This document shows positions 4,918 through 11,729 of a stretch of 41,054 nt of DNA, piece by piece. The stretch's first letter is position 1; the number at the start of each line of letters is the position of its first letter. The notes under the pieces are model-generated. The model searched no databases. It saw only the letters and a list, made by a program, of their open reading frames with translations, and had not been told where the DNA came from. The translations under genes were made by a program, and so were the position numbers. The stretch is from the sequence record SRR22947727_2720. One strand, given 5' to 3'.

Positions 4918-6300
4918 CTACATAGCAAACGCAGACTTAAACTTAAGCTTCTTTTCAATGGCCGTGATTAAGGTATTGGCAATGTCTTTCCCCGTAGCGT
5001 TTTCAATGCCTTCTAAACCAGGGGAGGAATTCACCTCCAACAACAAAGGCCCTTTATTGGAGCGAATAATATCTACCCCAGCAACTGCCAAGTTGAGTAC
5101 TTTACTCGCCTTAATGGCTAGTTTTTTCTCTTCTGGGGTAATTTTTACAATAGAAGCCTTTCCACCTTGGTGAATATTGGCCCTAAATTCTCCTTTTTCT
5201 GCCTGTCTTTGAATAGAAGCCACTACCCTGCCATCTACCACAAAACAACGAATGTCTTGGCCATTGGCTTCTTTAATAAATTCTTGAACCAGTATGTTGG
5301 TTTGTACACTTTTAAAAGCATTAATAACACTTTCTGCCGCCTTATTGGTCTCTGCCAAAACAACCCCTTTTCCTTGGGTACTCTCTAAAAGCTTAATGAT
5401 TAAAGGAGCCCCATTAACCATTCTAATAAGGTCTTTGGTGTCTAGAGGAGACTTGGCAAAACCAGTGATGGGAATGTGAATGTCAAACTTGGCAAACAAT
5501 TGAGAGGCAAACAATTTGTCCCTAGATTGTGTAATGGCCTCAGCTGTATTTAAACAGAACACCCCTAAGTTGTCAAACTGTCTAATTAGGGCGCATCCAT
5601 AAAAAGTCACCGCAGGCTTTATTCTAGGAATAATAGCGTCAAATTCATTGAGAATATTCCCGCCCCTATATCTAATTTCAGGAGAGTTGGCGTCTAACTT
5701 CATATAAGAGTGTTCCACATTTAGAAACACCATTTCGTGTCCTCTAGCCTCACCAGCCTCCATAATTCGCTTGTTGGAATACAGGTTTGGATTACTGGCT
5801 AAAAGGGCTATTTTTAGGCCTGTTTTAGCCTTCACATAAGGGGCGTACTTGGCACTCACCTCTTCTTCTGAAAACTCTTTTTGCAAAAAGGAATCTGCAG
5901 GATTTACCATATAACGGCCATTTAAAGCCTCTCTTCCCAGCAGCATTCTAAACTCCATGGTATCTCTATTGGCTAAGGTCAACTCAATATCAAAAGTGTC
6001 TGCGCCAATAGTTACAGGTGTTTTAATCACAAAACGTTCCTCTGCTATTCCTGAAGAACTTCTGACCGTTCTCCTGTCTACTAGTTTAGCTTCGCATTGT
6101 ATGTTAATACTCCTGTTGTCTTGAATGGGGTTAATTTCAAATTTCACATACTCTTGTCCCCCACGACCAACTACTTTGGCGTTGGCTGCCTGAATGGAAG
6201 ATGTTTTAGCGCCAGAGTCTACCCTAGCTTTGATGGCTGGAATACCCAAGGTTCCAAATACACACCACTCTTCACTTCCAATTACATTTAAATCTTGCAT
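4918..6300 (-). CDS. rimK: RimK alpha-L-glutamate ligase fused to an N-terminal retropepsin-like (RimB-type) protease domain
   Basis: N-terminus [26 protein letters not shown]-terminal ATP-grasp: [49 protein letters not shown]. Confidence 0.92.
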
Positions 6301-6348: not shown

Positions 6349-7137
6349 CTAGAATAATTTTAATAGTCTAATCACAAAAAGATCCACCACCTCTACCAGG
6401 ATTAGAAGGATAATAATCCATTCTAATTTACTGCTCTCTCGGTGCTCCATAATATCTTTAAAGAGCTCCAAGTCTTCTTTAATAATGGCCGTTCTTTCAT
6501 TAATATACCTGTAGCGGTCTTTTAAATCAAAAGTCTGCTTTAAGGCTATATTTAAAGTATTTAAAGATTCATTTTCCCAAGTAATGTCCGGAGAATCAAA
6601 AATATAGAGGTTCTCAGAAATCTGATTCTTAATATTTAATACTTTACCAATAAAGCGTTTCAATTTAATTCCTGAAATATCTAATTTCCCTTTTAATTCA
6701 AGAGATTTAGTGTACTTATTGGTCTCTGCAAGCAACTGATCTGTAATTTCTAAATACTGGTCTAGCGCCACAGACTGGGATGTATTTAACATGACCAATC
6801 TAATGGCTTCTGGATCAAAGTGAGCGAGAGTGACCCGGTCAAAGGCAACTTTTTGCGCTCCTTCTGCCACAAAAACCCGAATGGTTTCCTTTAAATCCTG
6901 CTCCTGCCATGGGGTAGCTTCGGGATTAAGCTGCTCTATAATTGTGTTAATTTCTTGGGTGCTGTGGTTAAAAAAGGCCATTACCCCATATTGAAAAACA
7001 TAGACAAATTTTTCTGTGCCGTTAGACATGAAAAGTTCGTCAGAATCTGTAAATAATATGGGCAATGCGAGTTTTTGCTTGCATTGCCTAATATTAAAAC
7101 TAGGGGCTATTTGAAGGGCTATAACAGAGTACATCAT
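6349..7137 (-). CDS. RMD1/DUF155 (YagE-like) family protein
   Basis: YVFQYGVMAFFN, SQSVALDQY, LYIFDSPDITWE, C-terminal LEWIIILLILVE transmembrane segment. Confidence 0.88.
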   Translation of the reverse strand: MMYSVIALQIAPSFNIRQCKQKLALPILFTDSDELFMSNGTEKFVYVFQYGVMAFFNHSTQEINTIIEQLNPEATPWQEQDLKETIRVFVAEGAQKVAFDRVTLAHFDPEAIRLVMLNTSQSVALDQYLEITDQLLAETNKYTKSLELKGKLDISGIKLKRFIGKVLNIKNQISENLYIFDSPDITWENESLNTLNIALKQTFDLKDRYRYINERTAIIKEDLELFKDIMEHRESSKLEWIIILLILVEVVDLFVIRLLKLF

Positions 7138-7442
7138 TAGTCTTCTGAGGCTTCTTCTAAATCAATATCTGGAATAGCATCTGGATCATTGTCGTCAAAA
7201 TCTTCATAATCATCTTCGTCATAATTAGCCATGGTCTTTTCCAACTTGGCGCTAATCTTCACCAGGTATTTAGTGTCTTCTGTAGACACTTCTACCGCCT
7301 GAATATTTTCTCCTGAAGCATTTTTGAAGCTAATAATATTAAGGTCATCATACCCATCAGGATACTTCTCTACCAAAAGCTTTAATACTTCTGGAGTGAG
7401 TTTTTTAAAATCTACAATGACACGTTTCAATGGCTGTTGCAT
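7137..7442 (-). CDS. Small conserved Bacteroidota hypothetical protein with Asp/Glu-rich C-terminal tail
   Basis: KRVIVDFKKLT...LVEKYPDGY...AVEV.TEDTKYLVKIS followed by YDEDDYEDFDDNDPD...LEEASED. Translationally coupled on both sides. Confidence 0.8.
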   Translation of the reverse strand: MQQPLKRVIVDFKKLTPEVLKLLVEKYPDGYDDLNIISFKNASGENIQAVEVSTEDTKYLVKISAKLEKTMANYDEDDYEDFDDNDPDAIPDIDLEEASED

Positions 7443-7444
7443 GG

Positions 7445-8416
7445 CTATAAATCTAAAAGGTAAGCAAAGATTAATGGAGCTACAATGGTAGCGTCACTCT
7501 CTATAATATACTTAGGGGTGTCTATATCTAATTTACCCCATGTAATTTTCTCGTTGGGTACCGCACCAGAATAAGACCCATAACTTGTGGTAGAATCACT
7601 GATCTGACAAAAATAACTCCAAAATGGCGTGTCTGTTCTTTCCATATCTTGGTAGAGCATAGGCACCACACAAATAGGGAAATCTCCTGCAATCCCTCCA
7701 CCAATTTGGAAGAATCCAATACCGTTTTCAGAATTATCTGTGTACCAATCTGCTAAAAAAGTCATGTATTCAATACCAGATTTTACGGTGCTGGCTTTTA
7801 ATTCGCCTTTGAGCACATAGGAGGCAAAGATATTCCCCATGGTACTGTCTTCCCAACCAGGACAAACAATAGGCAAATTCTTTTCTGCTGCTGCATACAT
7901 CCAAGAGTCTTTTAGATCAATTTCATAGTATTCCTCTAAGACCCCTGAAAGGAGCATTTTATACATAAATTCATGTGGAAAATAACGTTCTCCAGCAGCT
8001 TCTGCATCTTTCCATATTTTGTAAATATGCTTTTGTAGCCTCCTAAAAGCCTCCTCTTCTGGGATACAAGTATCAGTAACCCTATTGAGGCCTTTTTCGA
8101 GTAAATCCCATTCTTGCTGTGGGGTTAAATCCCTGTAATTGGGCACACGCTCATAATGGGAATGGGCCACTAAATTCATAATATCTTCTTCTAAATTGGC
8201 GCCAGTACAAGAAACAATTTGCACTTTATCCTGGCGGATCATTTCAGAAAAAATCTTTCCAATTTCCGCGGTACTCATGGCACCTGCAAGAGACACCAAC
8301 ATCTTAGAACCACCGGCCAATTGGGCTTCGTATCCTTTTGCAGCGTCTACTAATGCCGCTGCATTAAAATGCAAATAATATTTTTCTATAAAATTTGAAA
8401 TAGCTCCTTTACTCAT
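7445..8416 (-). CDS. Deoxyhypusine synthase-like protein, probable homospermidine synthase (SpeY-type)
   Basis: SCTGANLEED, LNRVTD, IGGGIAGDF, SGAVPNEKITWGK (conserved catalytic Lys), ESDATIVAP. Lies downstream of speA/speB. Confidence 0.92.
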   Translation of the reverse strand: MSKGAISNFIEKYYLHFNAAALVDAAKGYEAQLAGGSKMLVSLAGAMSTAEIGKIFSEMIRQDKVQIVSCTGANLEEDIMNLVAHSHYERVPNYRDLTPQQEWDLLEKGLNRVTDTCIPEEEAFRRLQKHIYKIWKDAEAAGERYFPHEFMYKMLLSGVLEEYYEIDLKDSWMYAAAEKNLPIVCPGWEDSTMGNIFASYVLKGELKASTVKSGIEYMTFLADWYTDNSENGIGFFQIGGGIAGDFPICVVPMLYQDMERTDTPFWSYFCQISDSTTSYGSYSGAVPNEKITWGKLDIDTPKYIIESDATIVAPLIFAYLLDL

Positions 8417-9347
8417 CGCTGTCTTGAAATTTAGTGAGGGTATTTTTTTTAACCTGTTCTAGATCGAAAGTATTGTCATATGGATCACTCGCCAAGACCT
8501 GCATGAATTTATAACTTAACATTTTATAATACAACTTTGCCGCTAAAAATTCCGATGGCTTGCTGTTACTATTTGGGCAAAGCTCAACAATGTCAAAACC
8601 CACTACATTTTTTTCTGTAAATACTTCTTTTAAAAATGCTAGGGTTTCATACCACAACAATCCTCCTGGCTCTGGGGTTCCAGTGGCTGGTAGGATAGAA
8701 GGATCAAAAGCATCTAAGTCTAAAGTGATAAATACGTTGTCTGTCATAAGTTCTAAAGCCTTGTCGGACCAATACTCATCCTGAACCATATCATGGGCAA
8801 AAAATGTTTTCTCAGGGTCCATAAAAGATTGCTCTATCTGATCCATTGAACGAATCCCCACCTGAATTAAATTGGTGGTTTGGCTTGCTTCATGAACCGC
8901 ACAAGCGTGGTTACAGCTAGTCCCCTCATAAGAAGCCCTTAAATCTGCATGCGCGTCTATATGAAGCACTGTTAAATTTTCAAAGCTCTCGTTAAAAGCC
9001 CTTATAGTACCTATTGAAATAGAGTGCTCTCCCCCGAAAAGGGTTACGAATTTGTTCTTTTTTATATATGACTTTGTGGCTTTATGAACGGCGTCTACCA
9101 TAGCTTCAGGCGTACTTTTCTCCAATACCGGATCTGCTAAATACACCCCTTGTTGGTACACCTCTGTAGCGGTTTCAATGTCGTATAATTCCATATTTTC
9201 AGAAGCTGCCAAAAAAGCTTCTGGTCCTTTATCTGCTCCTTTTCCCCAAGTACTCGTTCCGTCATAAGGGACTGGAATTAATACTACTTTCGCTGTTTCT
9301 AACTGGGCAAACTCATCTGGAATGCCAGCGTAATTACTCTTGCTCAT
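8409..9347 (-). CDS. speB: Agmatinase / ureohydrolase
   Basis: GGEHS, HIDAHADLR, DLDAFDP, TGTPEPGG, FDIVEL. Confidence 0.95.
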   Translation of the reverse strand: MSKSNYAGIPDEFAQLETAKVVLIPVPYDGTSTWGKGADKGPEAFLAASENMELYDIETATEVYQQGVYLADPVLEKSTPEAMVDAVHKATKSYIKKNKFVTLFGGEHSISIGTIRAFNESFENLTVLHIDAHADLRASYEGTSCNHACAVHEASQTTNLIQVGIRSMDQIEQSFMDPEKTFFAHDMVQDEYWSDKALELMTDNVFITLDLDAFDPSILPATGTPEPGGLLWYETLAFLKEVFTEKNVVGFDIVELCPNSNSKPSEFLAAKLYYKMLSYKFMQVLASDPYDNTFDLEQVKKNTLTKFQDSDE

Positions 9348-10734
9348 ACCCTAAAATTTTAAGCATCTGAGATGCTTCTTGTTGTTGTGAAAATAATGAA
9401 GTGGTTAAATTCCCCTGAGCGTCTTTCTGAATTAAAACGTGTTTGGGGGTTGGAATTAGACAGTGTTGTAAGCCTCCAAAGCCTCCTATGGATTCTTGGT
9501 ATGCACCTGTGTTAAAAAAACCAATATAAAGGGGCTTTTCTTTTTTAAATACAGGCAGGTAAATGGCGTTCATATTCTGCTCTGAATTGTAATAATCGTC
9601 GCTGTCACAGGTAAGACCACCTAAAAGTACCCGCTCGTATTCGTCTTGCCACCTGTTAATAGGTAGCATTATGAATCGCTTATTTATGGCCCAAGTATCT
9701 GGGAGGGTTGTAATAAATGAAGAGTCTATCATATTCCATTTCTCCCTATCATTCTGCTGTTTCTGATACAACACCTGATAAATTGCGCCACCACTCTCAC
9801 CCACTGTAAAGCTTCCAAATTCAGTGAAAATGTGCGGCACAGGGACGTCTGCCTCTGCACAAATGGCATTGATCTGGTTTAAGATTTCCTCTATCATATA
9901 GGCGTAGTCATATTCAAAAGCCAAAGAGTTTTTAATAGGAAAACCACCACCAATATTGAGACTGTCTAGACTTGGGCATATTTTTTTAAGGCGTACATAC
10001 ACCTTTAAACACTTGCTTAACTCATTCCAATAATAGGCATTGTCCCCAATACCTGTATTAATAAAAAAGTGTAGCATTTTTAATTCCACTTTATCATTGC
10101 CTATTATTTGGTCTTCGTAAAAAGGAACAATATTTCGGTAACCAATGCCTAATCGAGAAGTATAAAACTCAAACTTTGGTTCTTCTTCAGAAGCAATTCG
10201 AATCCCTATTTTATAGTCTCCATCTATTTTCTCTGACAAGAGAGAAATCTCTTCGTAATTGTCAATGATAGGAATACAATTCTCGTGGCCGGAATTAATG
10301 AGTCTGGCAATATTATCTACATATTGTGCCCTTTTAAATCCGTTGCAAATCACAAAAGTATCTGGCTTTATTTTACCCGCTTCTTTGAGCGATTCCACTA
10401 TATTGATGTCAAAAGCAGAAGAAGTTTCAATGTGAATATCATTGCTGAGGGCTTCTTCTAAAACATGTTTAAAATGAGCACTTTTGGTGCAGTAACAATA
10501 ATAGTACTTCCCTTTATAATCATTTTTTTTAATCGCATTGTCGAACCATCCTTTAGCACGCTGGATGTTTTCAGAAATTTTGGGTAAATAAGTAAATTTT
10601 AATGGGGTGCCGTATTGGGCCACCAATTTTTCTAATTCAATGCCATGAAAACGCAGGTTTTCGTCTTCTAGGGTGAATTCTTCTTGTGGAAAATAATAAC
10701 TCTGGTGTATTAGATCTATGTATTTAATATTCAT
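9334..10734 (-). CDS. speA: Arginine decarboxylase (fold-type III PLP enzyme, short Bacteroidota form)
   Basis: YCYCTKS (PLP Lys), ICNGFK, LNIGGGFP, FTEFGSFTV, SFITTLPDTW, GLTCDSDD, FFNTGAYQE. Adjacent to agmatinase. Confidence 0.92.
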   Translation of the reverse strand: MNIKYIDLIHQSYYFPQEEFTLEDENLRFHGIELEKLVAQYGTPLKFTYLPKISENIQRAKGWFDNAIKKNDYKGKYYYCYCTKSAHFKHVLEEALSNDIHIETSSAFDINIVESLKEAGKIKPDTFVICNGFKRAQYVDNIARLINSGHENCIPIIDNYEEISLLSEKIDGDYKIGIRIASEEEPKFEFYTSRLGIGYRNIVPFYEDQIIGNDKVELKMLHFFINTGIGDNAYYWNELSKCLKVYVRLKKICPSLDSLNIGGGFPIKNSLAFEYDYAYMIEEILNQINAICAEADVPVPHIFTEFGSFTVGESGGAIYQVLYQKQQNDREKWNMIDSSFITTLPDTWAINKRFIMLPINRWQDEYERVLLGGLTCDSDDYYNSEQNMNAIYLPVFKKEKPLYIGFFNTGAYQESIGGFGGLQHCLIPTPKHVLIQKDAQGNLTTSLFSQQQEASQMLKILGYEQE

Positions 10735-10745
10735 TATAGCAAATT

Positions 10746-10782
10746 AAAAATTAAAGAAAGGCCAAGAATTCGTATTCCTGAC
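10746..10782 (-). terminator. Terminator/attenuator-like hairpin in the speA leader
   Basis: Minus strand GUCAGGAAU-ACGA-AUUCUUGGC (9 bp including two G-U pairs), followed by CUUUCUUUAAUUUUU. The stem ends 26 nt before the speA ATG. Confidence 0.45.
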
Positions 10783-10813: not shown

Positions 10814-10981
10814 TTAGATATTGATCTGACGCGCAGTGGTGGGTACAAAAAAGTACTCGTGCTGGCTTTGCACGATAGCGGATAAGGAAGTTCGCTTTAA
10901 ATTTTGGTTGCCTATCTGATAAGCAGCGTCTAGAAAACACTTCGGATTTTCTAATTGCCCCAACATAGAAACACTTTTCAT
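10814..10981 (-). CDS. Putative 55-aa leader peptide (uORF) of the speA operon: MKSVSMLGQLENPKCFLDAAYQIGNQNLKRTSLSAIVQSQHEYFFVPTTARQINI
   Basis: Hand-translated: ATG at 10981, TAA at 10816-10814, 79 nt before speA. Shorter than any ORF in the track. A -7-like TTCATTTG lies about 25 nt upstream. Confidence 0.65.
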   Translation of the reverse strand: MKSVSMLGQLENPKCFLDAAYQIGNQNLKRTSLSAIVQSQHEYFFVPTTARQINI

Positions 10982-11240
10982 GATGTTCAGCTAAATGCCA
11001 CAACAAATGAAAACAAAAAATCTGAAAAAAAAGCGGCTTTTAAAAAGATTTAGAAAAAAAAGGGCATCGCCCAATTTTATTGGGCTAAAAGGAAAAAAAT
11101 TGCGCTTTAGACCCTATTTTAATAAAAAAAGGACGCAATAACAGGAAAAAAAGTCGAGTAAAGTGCGGCATTTCACAAAAAAAATCAACATCTGCTCTTT
11201 TTTAAGTCGTGCCCTGTAACTATCTTTAAAAGAAAAAACC

Positions 11241-11729
11241 ATGAAAAACAGAAGAGAATTTCTAAAAACCACCTGCCCTACTGTGGCATTTGCTTTCTTT
11301 GGCGTGTCGCTTATCCAAGCCTGTTCCTCCTCAGAAGATCCTATGCCCACTGTTCCTACAAACAATGGACAAACCAATACGGATACGGCCGGTGTCACCC
11401 AAAATGGCAATACCATTACCATTGATCTAAACGCATCTAATTTTTCTGGATTGGCCTCCGTTGGCAGCTGGATGAATCTCACCTCCGCAGGTGTACTACT
11501 TTTAAGGGTAAGCACTGACACCATTAGGGCTTTTGACAATTGCTGTCCGCATCAAGGCACCAGAACCCAGTGGAGCTATGGAAACAACACCTTTAACTGT
11601 GCAAACCACGGCAATAGCTTTGGTACGGGAGACAACACTGCTGCTTGTAATTCAGACGCTAGCAGCGGAGATTTGGTCAGTTACACTTCAAGTATCTCGG
11701 GCAATACATTGACTATTAATAAAGCTTAA
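11241..11729 (+). CDS. Tat-exported Rieske [2Fe-2S] lipoprotein
   Basis: RREFLK Tat motif, LIQAC lipobox, CPHQG and CANHG ligand boxes. TATCTTTA -7-like box at 11221. Confidence 0.88.
   Translation: MKNRREFLKTTCPTVAFAFFGVSLIQACSSSEDPMPTVPTNNGQTNTDTAGVTQNGNTITIDLNASNFSGLASVGSWMNLTSAGVLLLRVSTDTIRAFDNCCPHQGTRTQWSYGNNTFNCANHGNSFGTGDNTAACNSDASSGDLVSYTSSISGNTLTINKA

What the first reader, a model, noticed from the sequence alone, without database searches (positions are those of the whole stretch)
10814..10981. Unannotated 55-aa uORF heading the speA-speB-DHS polyamine operon: candidate metabolite-sensing leader/arrest peptide
Seen: the roughly 270-nt region upstream of speA contains a clean ATG...TAA ORF (MKSVSMLGQLENPKCFLDAAYQIGNQNLKRTSLSAIVQSQHEYFFVPTTARQINI). 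It is more GC-balanced than the flanking A/T runs, has a -7-like box about 25 nt upstream, and ends 79 nt before speA. Most neighbouring genes have much shorter upstream gaps. Known: polyamine genes are often controlled by nascent peptides, for example SpeFL for the ornithine decarboxylase speF in gamma-proteobacteria and the AdoMetDC and antizyme-inhibitor uORFs in eukaryotes. Inference: this peptide stalls ribosomes in response to arginine, agmatine or homospermidine and controls read-through into speA. The aromatic, Pro-containing end HEYFFVPTTAR loosely recalls the SpeFL end HFFNAR, which may be coincidental. I know of no described leader peptide for this Bacteroidota pathway.
Basis: partly seen in the sequence, partly recalled or inferred. 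Interest (0 to 1): 0.85.

Follow-up and report, generated by a model that had tools for sequence, protein, structure and literature searches.

The report
Pseudoknotted RNA and uORF before speA
In front of the polyamine-synthesis operon of many marine Flavobacteriaceae lies a conserved folded RNA overlapped by a small translated reading frame, a composite control element I could not find described, which probably senses a metabolite of the polyamine pathway.

Summary
The 55-codon ORF exists as described, on the minus strand (10981..10814), 79 nt before speA. Alone it is not beyond chance: 375 of 2000 shuffles give one. Comparison makes it real. A peptide profile found it in 122 of 251 genomes of the family, and 104 of 110 fetched places lie just upstream of speA.

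There are two layers of constraint. Codons 1-34 are conserved as nucleotides and fold into a three-way junction with a pseudoknot: 92.1% of cells paired against 84.0% in shuffles, and 226 against 57.7 double-sided changes. The last 17 codons are conserved as peptide: pN/pS is 0.36 in frame and 1.3-1.6 out of frame.

The start is always NTG and never CTG. The stop is TGA in 91 of 113 leaders, against 14 of 160 long ORFs nearby.

The RNA also precedes other polyamine-linked operons. It matches no Rfam family.

The ligand and the mechanism are untested. The closest published analogue is the odc1 RNA/uORF motif of alpha-proteobacteria.

The parts
11004..11011 (-). -7 promoter-like box TTCATTTG (consensus TAnnTTTG, one mismatch). 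The predicted transcription start is about 10995-10999.
   Evidence: a box with its final G at -24..-20 from the uORF start is exact in 20 of 110 leaders and has one mismatch in 55 of 110. Upstream of speA itself there is 1 exact match in 110. The consensus is recalled; the start site is inferred.
10878..10997 (-). Whole conserved RNA domain (match to covariance model R1).
   Evidence: 108.9 bits, E 4e-22, the only hit in the 41-kb window. Alignment A2. No Rfam match.
10984..10995 (-). Nearly invariant 5' leader UUUAGCUGAACA, conserved whatever the frame (non-coding). Its GAACA (10988-10984) can pair with UGUUU (10973-10969) to form P1, with the start codon in the loop.
   Evidence: conserved in both registers. 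P1 is 95.6% paired but has little covariation, so it is plausible and not shown.
10979..10981 (-). uORF start codon (ATG here).
   Evidence: the aligned codon is TTG in 70, ATG in 33 and GTG in 8 of 113 leaders, never CTG; its T and G are invariant in 110 of 110.
10903..10963 (-). P2 (10963-10959 with 10907-10903). It encloses P3 (window register 10954-10947 with 10937-10930) and P4 (10924-10919 with 10915-10910).
   Evidence: P2 95.5%, P3 91.9% and P4 86.5% of cells paired; 4 of 5, 8 of 8 and 6 of 6 pairs have double-sided changes. In the window P2 has one mismatch or a one-base register shift (read). P3 and P4 appear in the MFE and centroid folds.
10887..10943 (-). Pseudoknot: the P3 loop GAAGU (10943-10939) pairs with ACUUC (10891-10887).
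   Evidence: helix 3: 95.2% paired. The first pair is GC in 82, AU in 12 and UA in 1; 4 of 6 pairs have double-sided changes. The window forms 5 of the 6 pairs.
10814..10981 (-). uORF of 55 codons plus TAA.
   Evidence: Lengths in relatives are 48-68 codons, with 55 in 68 of 110.
10817..10867 (-). C-terminal 17 codons (SQHEYFFVPTTARQINI), under selection as peptide.
   Evidence: Pro, Thr, Thr, Ile and Ile/Val columns have entropy 0-0.85 at codon positions 1-2 and 1.25-1.86 at position 3; pN/pS 0.36 in frame against 1.60 and 1.31 out of frame; the last residue is I or V in 106 of 112.
10814..10816 (-). uORF stop codon (TAA in the window's genus, TGA in most relatives).
   Evidence: TGA 91, TAA 14, TAG 8 of 113. 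Long ORFs of the same loci: TAA 121, TAG 25, TGA 14.
10846..10875 (-). Terminator-like hairpin plus U6 inside the uORF (codons 36-45). It is found only in the subgroup with IVQSQH.YFF.
   Evidence: By eye it is present in the window's closest relatives and in L009, and absent in the YGF/YAF groups.
10761..10782 (-). Hairpin followed by a U-rich tract, between the uORF stop and speA.
   Evidence: A permissive scan finds such a hairpin in only 51 of 111 leaders, so it is not a family-wide feature.
9334..10734 (-). speA-like PLP decarboxylase, the first long gene of the operon. It is followed by speB (8409-9347), the DHS-like gene (7445-8416), an acidic 101-aa protein (7137-7442), DUF155 (6349-7137) and a RimB-RimK fusion (4918-6300).

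Best explanation
This is a composite cis-regulatory leader of the polyamine (speA-speB-DHS) operon.

Inferred: the transcript starts about 15 nt before the uORF start codon.

Shown by covariation: its first roughly 115 nt fold into a conserved domain made of P2, P3 and P4 around a three-way junction, plus a pseudoknot between the P3 loop and the 3' tail. A possible P1 would hold the start codon in its loop.

Shown by comparative signatures: a uORF of about 55 codons starts inside this domain, is read through it and ends 60-90 nt before speA. Its C-terminal peptide and its stop codon are under selection.

Inferred mechanism:
- The RNA fold is the sensor, for a polyamine-pathway metabolite such as agmatine, putrescine or homospermidine, or for a protein.
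- The fold competes with translation of the uORF. Initiation needs P1 open, and elongation must unwind P2 and the pseudoknot from codon 7 on.
- The uORF is the expression platform. A ribosome that reaches its end pauses at the UGA because of the nascent C-terminus [I/F/L]-[Q/R]-[I/V].
- That pause decides whether speA is expressed, by shielding the RNA from Rho or a terminator or by promoting downstream initiation.
For: (1) Conservation and linkage. The profile hit 122 of 251 genomes of the family. speA lies on the same strand downstream in 104 of 110 fetched places, with a median gap of 75 nt. Of the 122 motif genomes, 118 have speA.

(2) RNA structure. 92.1% of cells are paired against 84.0% in shuffles (0 of 500 reach it). 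Double-sided changes number 226 against 57.7. Slid controls give 32-56% paired. Many unpaired positions are nearly invariant. Codons 2-34 show no coding signal: GTT in 103 of 111, and pN/pS 0.77 against 1.01 and 0.72 out of frame.

(3) Translation. The start is NTG in all and never CTG. A nucleotide box sought without regard to frame lies in frame in 69 of 71 leaders, although linker lengths differ: 135, 138, 141 and 144 nt. The C-terminus shows third-position variation. The stop is TGA in 91 of 113 leaders against 14 of 160 long ORFs.

(4) Promoter box at a fixed distance before the uORF in 75 of 110 leaders, and hardly any before speA.

(5) Regulon. Model R1 finds copies that were not in its training set, at 117-126 bits, before an acidic small-protein operon. 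Two genomes carry two copies, before speA and before operons with Glyoxalase/TerB or ATP-grasp/AstE-like genes.

(6) No RNA-only expression platform was found. This fits the ribosome being the platform.
Against: - No experiment and no usable expression data. The RNA-library contigs that hold the leader are long and show neither ends nor strand.
- The window's own RNA is not unusually stable (z = +0.87), and its P2 and pseudoknot each lose one pair.
- TTG starts (70 of 113) are, as I recall, uncommon in Bacteroidota, although speA itself starts with TTG in 14 of 110 of these genomes.
- The pN/pS test used 66 sequences picked by their C-terminal motif, which biases pN downward. Searches do not share that bias.
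- In the non-speA contexts the C-terminal motif is mostly not kept, so the peptide part may matter only for speA.
- Related genomes are not independent observations.
- Ligand binding, stalling and the sign of regulation are pure inference.
Confidence: 0.55

Rival explanations
1. The nascent peptide alone is the sensor: an arrest peptide of SpeFL or TnaC type that responds to arginine, agmatine or a polyamine. The RNA fold is only accessory, tuning initiation at a weak start, pausing or mRNA stability.
For: The C-terminus is selected as peptide. The last three residues and the TGA stop are constrained. The uORF sits at a fixed distance before speA.
Against: The most conserved part of the leader is RNA, with many invariant unpaired bases and a pseudoknot. 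That is more than an accessory hairpin needs. The RNA recurs before other operons without the conserved C-terminus. Two or more different C-terminal classes exist on the same RNA.
Confidence: 0.2
2. The RNA domain is a riboswitch or a protein-binding leader, and the ORF has no function of its own. It stays open only because the conserved RNA happens to lack stops in that frame.
For: Codons 2-34 carry no coding signal. In a single sequence the ORF is not beyond chance. Gene finders seldom call it: only 4 clusters in 5.8 billion proteins.
Against: The frame stays open 14 to 34 codons beyond the RNA domain in all 110 leaders, in AT-rich DNA. Indels are in frame in 69 of 71. Third-position variation and pN/pS of 0.36 appear only in this frame. 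The start is NTG and never CTG. TGA is enriched about ninefold.
Confidence: 0.08
3. The ORF encodes a free small basic protein that acts in trans, for example as an antizyme-like inhibitor of SpeA. The RNA fold controls how much of it is made.
For: The peptide is conserved in length (55 codons in 68 of 110). Its N-terminal half is basic and it is encoded next to speA. Antizyme synthesis in eukaryotes is also gated by an RNA pseudoknot and polyamines (recalled).
Against: The N-terminal half shows no selection at the amino-acid level beyond the RNA. The C-terminal classes differ strongly between clades while SpeA stays 75-83% identical. The peptide matches no protein family.
Confidence: 0.08
4. 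A classical attenuator that senses charged tRNA, of trpL or hisL type. Ribosome speed over regulatory Arg codons chooses between terminator and antiterminator hairpins.
For: Conserved Arg codons AGG, AGA and CGA lie in the uORF. Terminator-like hairpins exist in the window.
Against: There is no run of Arg codons. Those codons sit in conserved helices or junctions of the RNA, which explains their identity. Terminator-like hairpins occur in only 51 of 111 leaders. There is no conserved alternative pairing.
Confidence: 0.05

Closest known systems
odc1 motif (uORF-25-1) of alpha-proteobacteria (Brewer et al. 2021, PMC8632094; section 19 read in full)
   Same: A conserved structured RNA with a pseudoknot, combined with a conserved uORF that uses UUG starts, in front of the decarboxylase that commits to polyamine synthesis. 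The authors propose it as a possible riboswitch that steers translation initiation.
   Different: odc1 comes from another phylum and precedes another enzyme (ornithine decarboxylase). It is one hairpin plus a pseudoknot lying mostly upstream of the uORF. Its uORF is always 11 codons and starts two bases before the main start. Here there is a three-way junction plus a pseudoknot, the uORF has 48-68 codons and is read through the fold, it ends 60-90 nt before speA, and it has a conserved C-terminus and a TGA stop. No sequence comparison was possible, as I had no odc1 sequences.
SpeFL leader of speF in gamma-proteobacteria (recalled, not read here)
   Same: A short ORF before a polyamine-pathway decarboxylase, whose C-terminal residues act in the ribosome at the stop codon.
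   Different: SpeFL has no conserved aptamer-like RNA that I know of. It senses ornithine through the nascent chain and acts through Rho. Here no family match was found, the leader is dominated by RNA structure, and stalling is untested.
TnaC leader of the tryptophanase operon (recalled)
   Same: An aromatic residue and a Pro near the C-terminus and a UGA stop. Termination arrest there controls downstream transcription.
   Different: The resemblance is in logic only. There is no homology, no RNA domain in tnaC, and the ligand here is unknown.
mgtA leader of Salmonella: Mg2+-sensing RNA plus the mgtL uORF (recalled)
   Same: A sensing RNA and a translated uORF share one leader, and translation of the uORF shifts the RNA conformation and Rho-dependent termination.
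   Different: The structures are unrelated. mgtL is short and proline-rich, and its peptide sequence is not a conserved C-terminal module ending at a preferred stop codon.
Eukaryotic polyamine-responsive elements: the AdoMetDC uORF (MAGDIS) and the antizyme frameshift pseudoknot (recalled)
   Same: Polyamine-pathway genes are controlled through termination pausing on a uORF with Ile near its end, or through an RNA pseudoknot read by the ribosome.
   Different: These are eukaryotic and unrelated in sequence.

Membership tests
Riboswitch (metabolite-binding cis-regulatory RNA) | Conserved secondary structure supported by covariation | tested here: met
   25 pairs in 4 helices, 92.1% paired, and 22 pairs with double-sided changes against 14.7 expected (0 of 500 shuffles reach it). 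Slid controls give 32-56% paired.
Riboswitch (metabolite-binding cis-regulatory RNA) | Lies in the 5' leader, on the coding strand, of functionally related genes in more than one operon type | tested here: met
   it precedes the speA operon, an acidic small-protein operon, and operons with Glyoxalase/TerB, GNAT-CN_hydrolase, or ATP-grasp/AstE-like genes. Two genomes carry two copies.
Riboswitch (metabolite-binding cis-regulatory RNA) | Highly conserved unpaired nucleotides in junctions and loops | tested here: met
   36 nearly invariant positions and 4 invariant columns, many of them in the junction AUUUUAAAGCU, the P3 loop and the 5' leader.
Riboswitch (metabolite-binding cis-regulatory RNA) | Direct and selective binding of a small molecule | not testable with these tools
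   Needs in-line probing, ITC or a structure.
Riboswitch (metabolite-binding cis-regulatory RNA) | Recognisable expression platform (terminator/antiterminator or sequestered start) | tested here: inconclusive
   Terminator-like hairpins in 51 of 111 leaders. No excess complementarity to the downstream leader. No consensus fold in the gap. P1 may hold the uORF start codon (little covariation).
Any Rfam 15 family | Match to a curated covariance model | tested here: not met
   no match within 10814-10997 at E<=10; 0 matches at E<=1 in 5 loci close to the consensus.
Regulatory arrest or leader peptide (SpeFL/TnaC kind) | Short ORF translated on the same transcript just upstream of the regulated gene | tested here: inconclusive
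   Position, coding signatures and the promoter box support it. Translation and co-transcription were not observed directly (one search is uninformative).
Regulatory arrest or leader peptide (SpeFL/TnaC kind) | C-terminal residues conserved as amino acids, with a constrained stop context | tested here: met
Regulatory arrest or leader peptide (SpeFL/TnaC kind) | Ligand-dependent ribosome stalling | not testable with these tools
   Needs toeprinting, Ribo-seq or cryo-EM.
SpeFL family proper | Sequence homology to SpeFL | tested here: inconclusive
   The peptide matches no Pfam or NCBIfam model. I do not know whether those libraries hold a SpeFL model, and I had no SpeFL sequence to compare.
odc1 motif (uORF-25-1) | 11-codon uORF of fixed length starting two bases before the main start; single extended hairpin plus pseudoknot; alpha-proteobacteria | tested here: not met
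   Compared with the description in PMC8632094 section 19. Here the uORF has 48-68 codons, the gap to speA has a median of 75 nt, and there is a three-way junction. It was found only in one family of Bacteroidota.
Amino-acid attenuator (trpL/hisL kind) | Run of codons for the sensed amino acid, plus mutually exclusive terminator and antiterminator | tested here: not met
   No run of Arg codons. No conserved terminator or alternative pairing.

The most novel reading that the evidence does not exclude
The RNA domain is a natural riboswitch for a polyamine or agmatine, a class long looked for and, as far as I recall, never validated. Its expression platform is a translated uORF ending in an arrest-type peptide rather than an RNA hairpin. 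One leader would then combine an RNA sensor and a nascent-peptide module, perhaps reading product and substrate at once, to set homospermidine synthesis in marine Flavobacteriaceae.
Probability: 0.25. Interest if true: 0.92.

Novelty: new variant of a known kind. Interest (0 to 1): 0.8.

Why it matters
Polyamines are made by nearly all cells, yet how bacteria outside the enterics sense them is largely unknown.

This element is widespread. It was found in 122 of 251 sampled genomes of the Flavobacteriaceae. Many are cultured type strains of Algibacter, Tamlana, Winogradskyella, Olleya, Lacinutrix and Formosa.

It has a clear covariation-supported fold and matches no Rfam family. It marks a regulon that links speA-speB-DHS with uncharacterised genes: an acidic small protein, RimK-like and other ATP-grasp ligases, and GNAT-CN_hydrolase, VOC and AstE-like enzymes.

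It offers a directly testable candidate for a polyamine-pathway riboswitch. It is also a rare case in which a ribosome must read through the sensing fold. In addition it gives a handle for annotating those unknown genes as polyamine-related.

Tried and rejected
- Complex prediction of SpeA with the peptide gave no verdict. It is not evidence either way.
- RNA runs: 12 runs on record as RNA hold the stretch. The four I laid gave contigs, two of them long enough to span the whole stretch, across both divergent genes. They show no ends and no strand, so they tell nothing about transcription start or attenuation. One contig break at 11128-11145 in one run is not interpretable.
- Intrinsic terminator between the uORF and speA: found in only 51 of 111 leaders with a permissive scan.
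- Pairing of aptamer segments with the downstream leader: energies equal those of shuffles, -11.6 against -11.8 and -8.7 against -8.5 kcal/mol. An earlier version of this script timed out.
- Consensus fold of the gap: none.
- Three further helices involving the 5' leader are 86-96% paired but too conserved to show covariation, so they are left open: CUGAAC/GUUCGG, GAACA/UGUUU and UAGCU/AGCUA.
- +1 frameshift from the uORF stop into speA: rejected, because the gaps (for example 76, 77, 80, 72 nt) differ modulo 3.
- Thermodynamic stability of the window's copy is not unusual (z = +0.87).
- DNA matches L016-L024 and L026-L030 were short AT-rich hits without speA or the uORF and were dropped.
- L015 has speA but no uORF or motif.
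- Earlier findings of this scan: nothing on record.
- Literature searches found no description of this leader. In PMC6847099 'speA' only matched 'Spearman'. PMC9870897 and PMC11109978 (0 occurrences) are irrelevant. Supplements were not seen, and motif lists in them could hold it.

Full report
OBSERVATION

The ORF lies on the minus strand, with ATG at 10981-10979 and TAA at 10816-10814. It ends 79 nt before a 466-aa PLP decarboxylase (PF02784). An arginase-family gene (PF00491) and a deoxyhypusine-synthase-family gene (PF01916) follow on the same strand. These fit speA, speB and a homospermidine-synthase-like DHS. NCBIfam hits point the same way but stay below their cut-offs.

The full intergenic space up to a divergent Rieske gene (11241) is 506 nt, not about 270. 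Taken alone, the ORF is unremarkable: an ATG ORF of 55 aa or more arises in 375 of 2000 shuffles of that region.

CONSERVATION

A DNA search of 61 related genomes gave matches in 24. The 15 best places (L001-L014, L025) all lie directly upstream of a speA orthologue. All 15 have an open frame of 55-57 codons in the same place. The other 15 loci were dropped: 14 were short AT-rich matches without speA, and L015 has speA but no uORF.

A profile of 13 peptides, searched in six frames, hit 122 of 251 genomes of the family at E<=0.01. That sample has almost one genome per genus. About 55 hits were below 1e-20, and the strong ones had no internal stops.

I fetched the 110 best places. In 104 of them speA follows on the same strand. 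The gap has a median of 75 nt and lies between 57 and 130 nt in 98.

Cross-tabulating with a speA search of the same 251 genomes gives: motif and speA 118, motif only 4, speA only 57, neither 72. Named records show that the carriers are Flavobacteriaceae, including Algibacter, Tamlana, Winogradskyella, Olleya, Lacinutrix, Formosa and Flaviramulus. Related genomes are not independent, so these counts describe spread, not statistics.

TWO LAYERS OF CONSTRAINT

In an alignment of 112 peptides, the first 34 residues align without indels. A variable linker follows, and then one of several C-terminal classes:
- SQH.Y.F.PTT..QI.I, the window's class;
- R.AYWLNPIRI;
- KKVWALLPIIV;
- F.PSTVFIFRI.

Column entropies over all 111 distinct sequences show no third-position relaxation in codons 1-34. 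GTT occurs in 103 of 111, AAG in 103, TTA in 100 and CGA in 85, and one codon is NNT. The C-terminal columns behave differently. For Pro, Thr, Thr, Ile and the final Ile/Val, entropy is 0-0.85 at positions 1 and 2 of Pro, Thr and Thr, about 1.1 at position 1 and at most 0.18 at position 2 of the two Ile columns, and 1.25-1.86 at position 3.

For 66 class-I sequences, pN/pS over the last 17 codons is 0.36 in frame and 1.60 and 1.31 in the shifted frames. For codons 2-34 the values are 0.77, 1.01 and 0.72. The class was picked by its peptide motif, which biases pN downward. The entropy test and the next test do not share this bias.

A nucleotide box CCN-A[CA]N-A[CT]N was sought in any frame. It occurs in 71 of 110 leaders and is in frame with the start in 69 of 71, at distances of 135, 138, 141 and 144 nt among others. 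Linker indels therefore come in threes.

RNA STRUCTURE

The nucleotide-conserved part folds. On 110 distinct leaders (alignment A2) I tested this structure: P2 enclosing hairpins P3 and P4, plus a pseudoknot between the P3 loop (GGAAGU) and ACUUCC downstream of P2. The results:
- 92.1% of 2750 cells are paired, against 84.0% in shuffles (0 of 500 reach it).
- Cells with changes on both sides number 226, against 57.7.
- 22 of 25 pairs show such changes.
- Partners slid by 1-3 columns give 32-56% paired.

P4 switches between CUUAU/AUAAG, CUCGCC/GGCGGG and UUUGCC/GGCAAA, which can be read off.

Three further helices involving the invariant 5' leader UUAGCUGAACA are compatible but too conserved to judge. 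One of them, P1, would place the start codon in a 10-nt loop.

The window's copy keeps P3, P4, five of six pseudoknot pairs and four P2 pairs. Its predicted stability is ordinary (z = +0.87). No Rfam 15 family matches, either in the window (E<=10) or in five loci close to the consensus (E<=1).

START, PROMOTER AND STOP

The aligned start codon is TTG in 70, ATG in 33 and GTG in 8 of 113 leaders, never CTG. One further leader is cut by a contig end, and one has its ATG a codon upstream. Its T and G are invariant in 110 of 110. speA itself starts with TTG in 14 of 110 of these genomes.

A -7 box TAnnTTTG (consensus recalled) with its last G at -24..-20 is exact in 20 and one mismatch off in 55 of 110 leaders. 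Before speA there is a single exact match in 110. I infer that transcription starts at the 5' edge of the conserved RNA and that speA is co-transcribed.

The uORF stop is TGA in 91, TAA in 14 and TAG in 8 of 113. Long ORFs of the same loci have TAA 121, TAG 25 and TGA 14. The last residue is I or V in 106 of 112, and residue -3 is I, F or L in 107 of 112.

SPREAD AND REGULON

A covariance model (R1) found nothing in 136 genomes of 17 other families of the order. It also found nothing in 147 genomes outside the family at class level. These searches used strict filters, so the result is 'not found in those searched'.

Within the family the RNA also heads other units:
- In four genomes without this speA, it precedes a gene for an acidic protein of about 100 aa plus a second small gene. 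These copies score 117-126 bits and were not in the training set. The acidic protein is homologous to window 7137-7442.
- In one of those genomes, GNAT-CN_hydrolase, Glyoxalase-family and RimK-like genes follow.
- One genome has tandem copies, one before Glyoxalase/TerB genes and one before speA.
- Another genome has divergent copies, one before speA and one before a small protein, an unknown 475-aa protein, a GSH-S-type ATP-grasp and an AstE/AspA-like gene.

In these contexts the frame stays open 18 or more codons past the RNA, but the conserved C-terminus is mostly missing.

HOW IT PROBABLY WORKS

Shown:
- a conserved pseudoknotted RNA at the 5' end of the leader;
- comparative signatures that a ribosome reads a uORF through it;
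- selection on the uORF's C-terminal peptide and on its stop codon;
- linkage to polyamine genes in several operon types.

Inferred:
- The fold is the sensor, of a pathway metabolite or a protein. It competes with uORF translation, because P1 must open for initiation and P2 and the pseudoknot start 18 nt after the start codon.
- The uORF is the expression platform.
- A pause at the UGA, imposed by the nascent C-terminus, sets downstream expression.

I found no RNA-only platform. The ligand, the sign of regulation and any role of Rho remain open.

COMPARISON AND VERDICT

The closest published case is the odc1 motif of alpha-proteobacteria. It combines a pseudoknotted RNA with an 11-codon UUG uORF before ornithine decarboxylase (PMC8632094, section 19 read in full). 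The logic is the same, but the fold, the uORF length and geometry, the enzyme and the phylum all differ.

SpeFL, TnaC, the mgtA/mgtL leader and the eukaryotic AdoMetDC and antizyme elements are functional analogies recalled from memory. They are not relatives.

Six literature searches found no description of this element. Supplements could not be read.

The element is best filed as a new variant of composite RNA/uORF leaders and deserves experimental follow-up.

Noticed in passing
window 11055-11251 (-): Upstream of the leader's promoter, on the same strand, lies a GC hairpin GGGCGAUGCCC followed by U7 (about 11083-11060). Rfam gives weak sub-threshold hits there: rimP leader at 31.7 bits and a FopS sRNA at 23.1 bits, the latter overlapping the start of the divergent Rieske gene. 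This may be a small RNA or a bidirectional terminator.
   Followed up: no
window 7137-7442 (-) and 4918-6300 (-): The operon encodes an acidic 101-aa protein with no Pfam or NCBIfam family. Its tail is rich in Asp and Glu. In other genomes this gene is the first one under the same RNA motif. The operon ends with a RimB-RimK fusion that scores above the cut-off for the S6--glutamate ligase model. The acidic protein might be its substrate or might bind polyamines.
   Followed up: partly
L145 4743-4862 and 6044-6163 (-); L146 5334-5453 (-) and 5685-5803 (+): Two genomes carry two copies of the RNA motif. In one they are in tandem, before Glyoxalase/TerB genes and before speA. In the other they are divergent, before speA and before an ATP-grasp/AstE-like operon.
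   Followed up: yes
L141 800-1301 (+): In one genome the uORF is fused in frame to the downstream acidic-protein gene, giving one ORF of 166-169 aa. In L143 the uORF stop lies only 4 nt before that gene's ATG. This hints at translational coupling in the non-speA contexts.
   Followed up: partly
window 10786 (T run between the uORF and speA): In all four laid runs, and in the nearest genome (L001), the T run is two bases shorter than in the window. This is a population length variant in the gap.
   Followed up: no
speA start codons in related loci: The speA orthologue starts with TTG at the aligned start in 14 of 110 leaders, always together with a TTG uORF start.
   Followed up: no
window 10846-10875 (-): An intrinsic-terminator-like hairpin with a U6 run sits inside the uORF, right after the RNA domain. 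It occurs only in the subgroup whose peptide reads IVQSQH.YFF. It could give a short RNA of about 145 nt, or an extra attenuation point, in that clade.
   Followed up: partly
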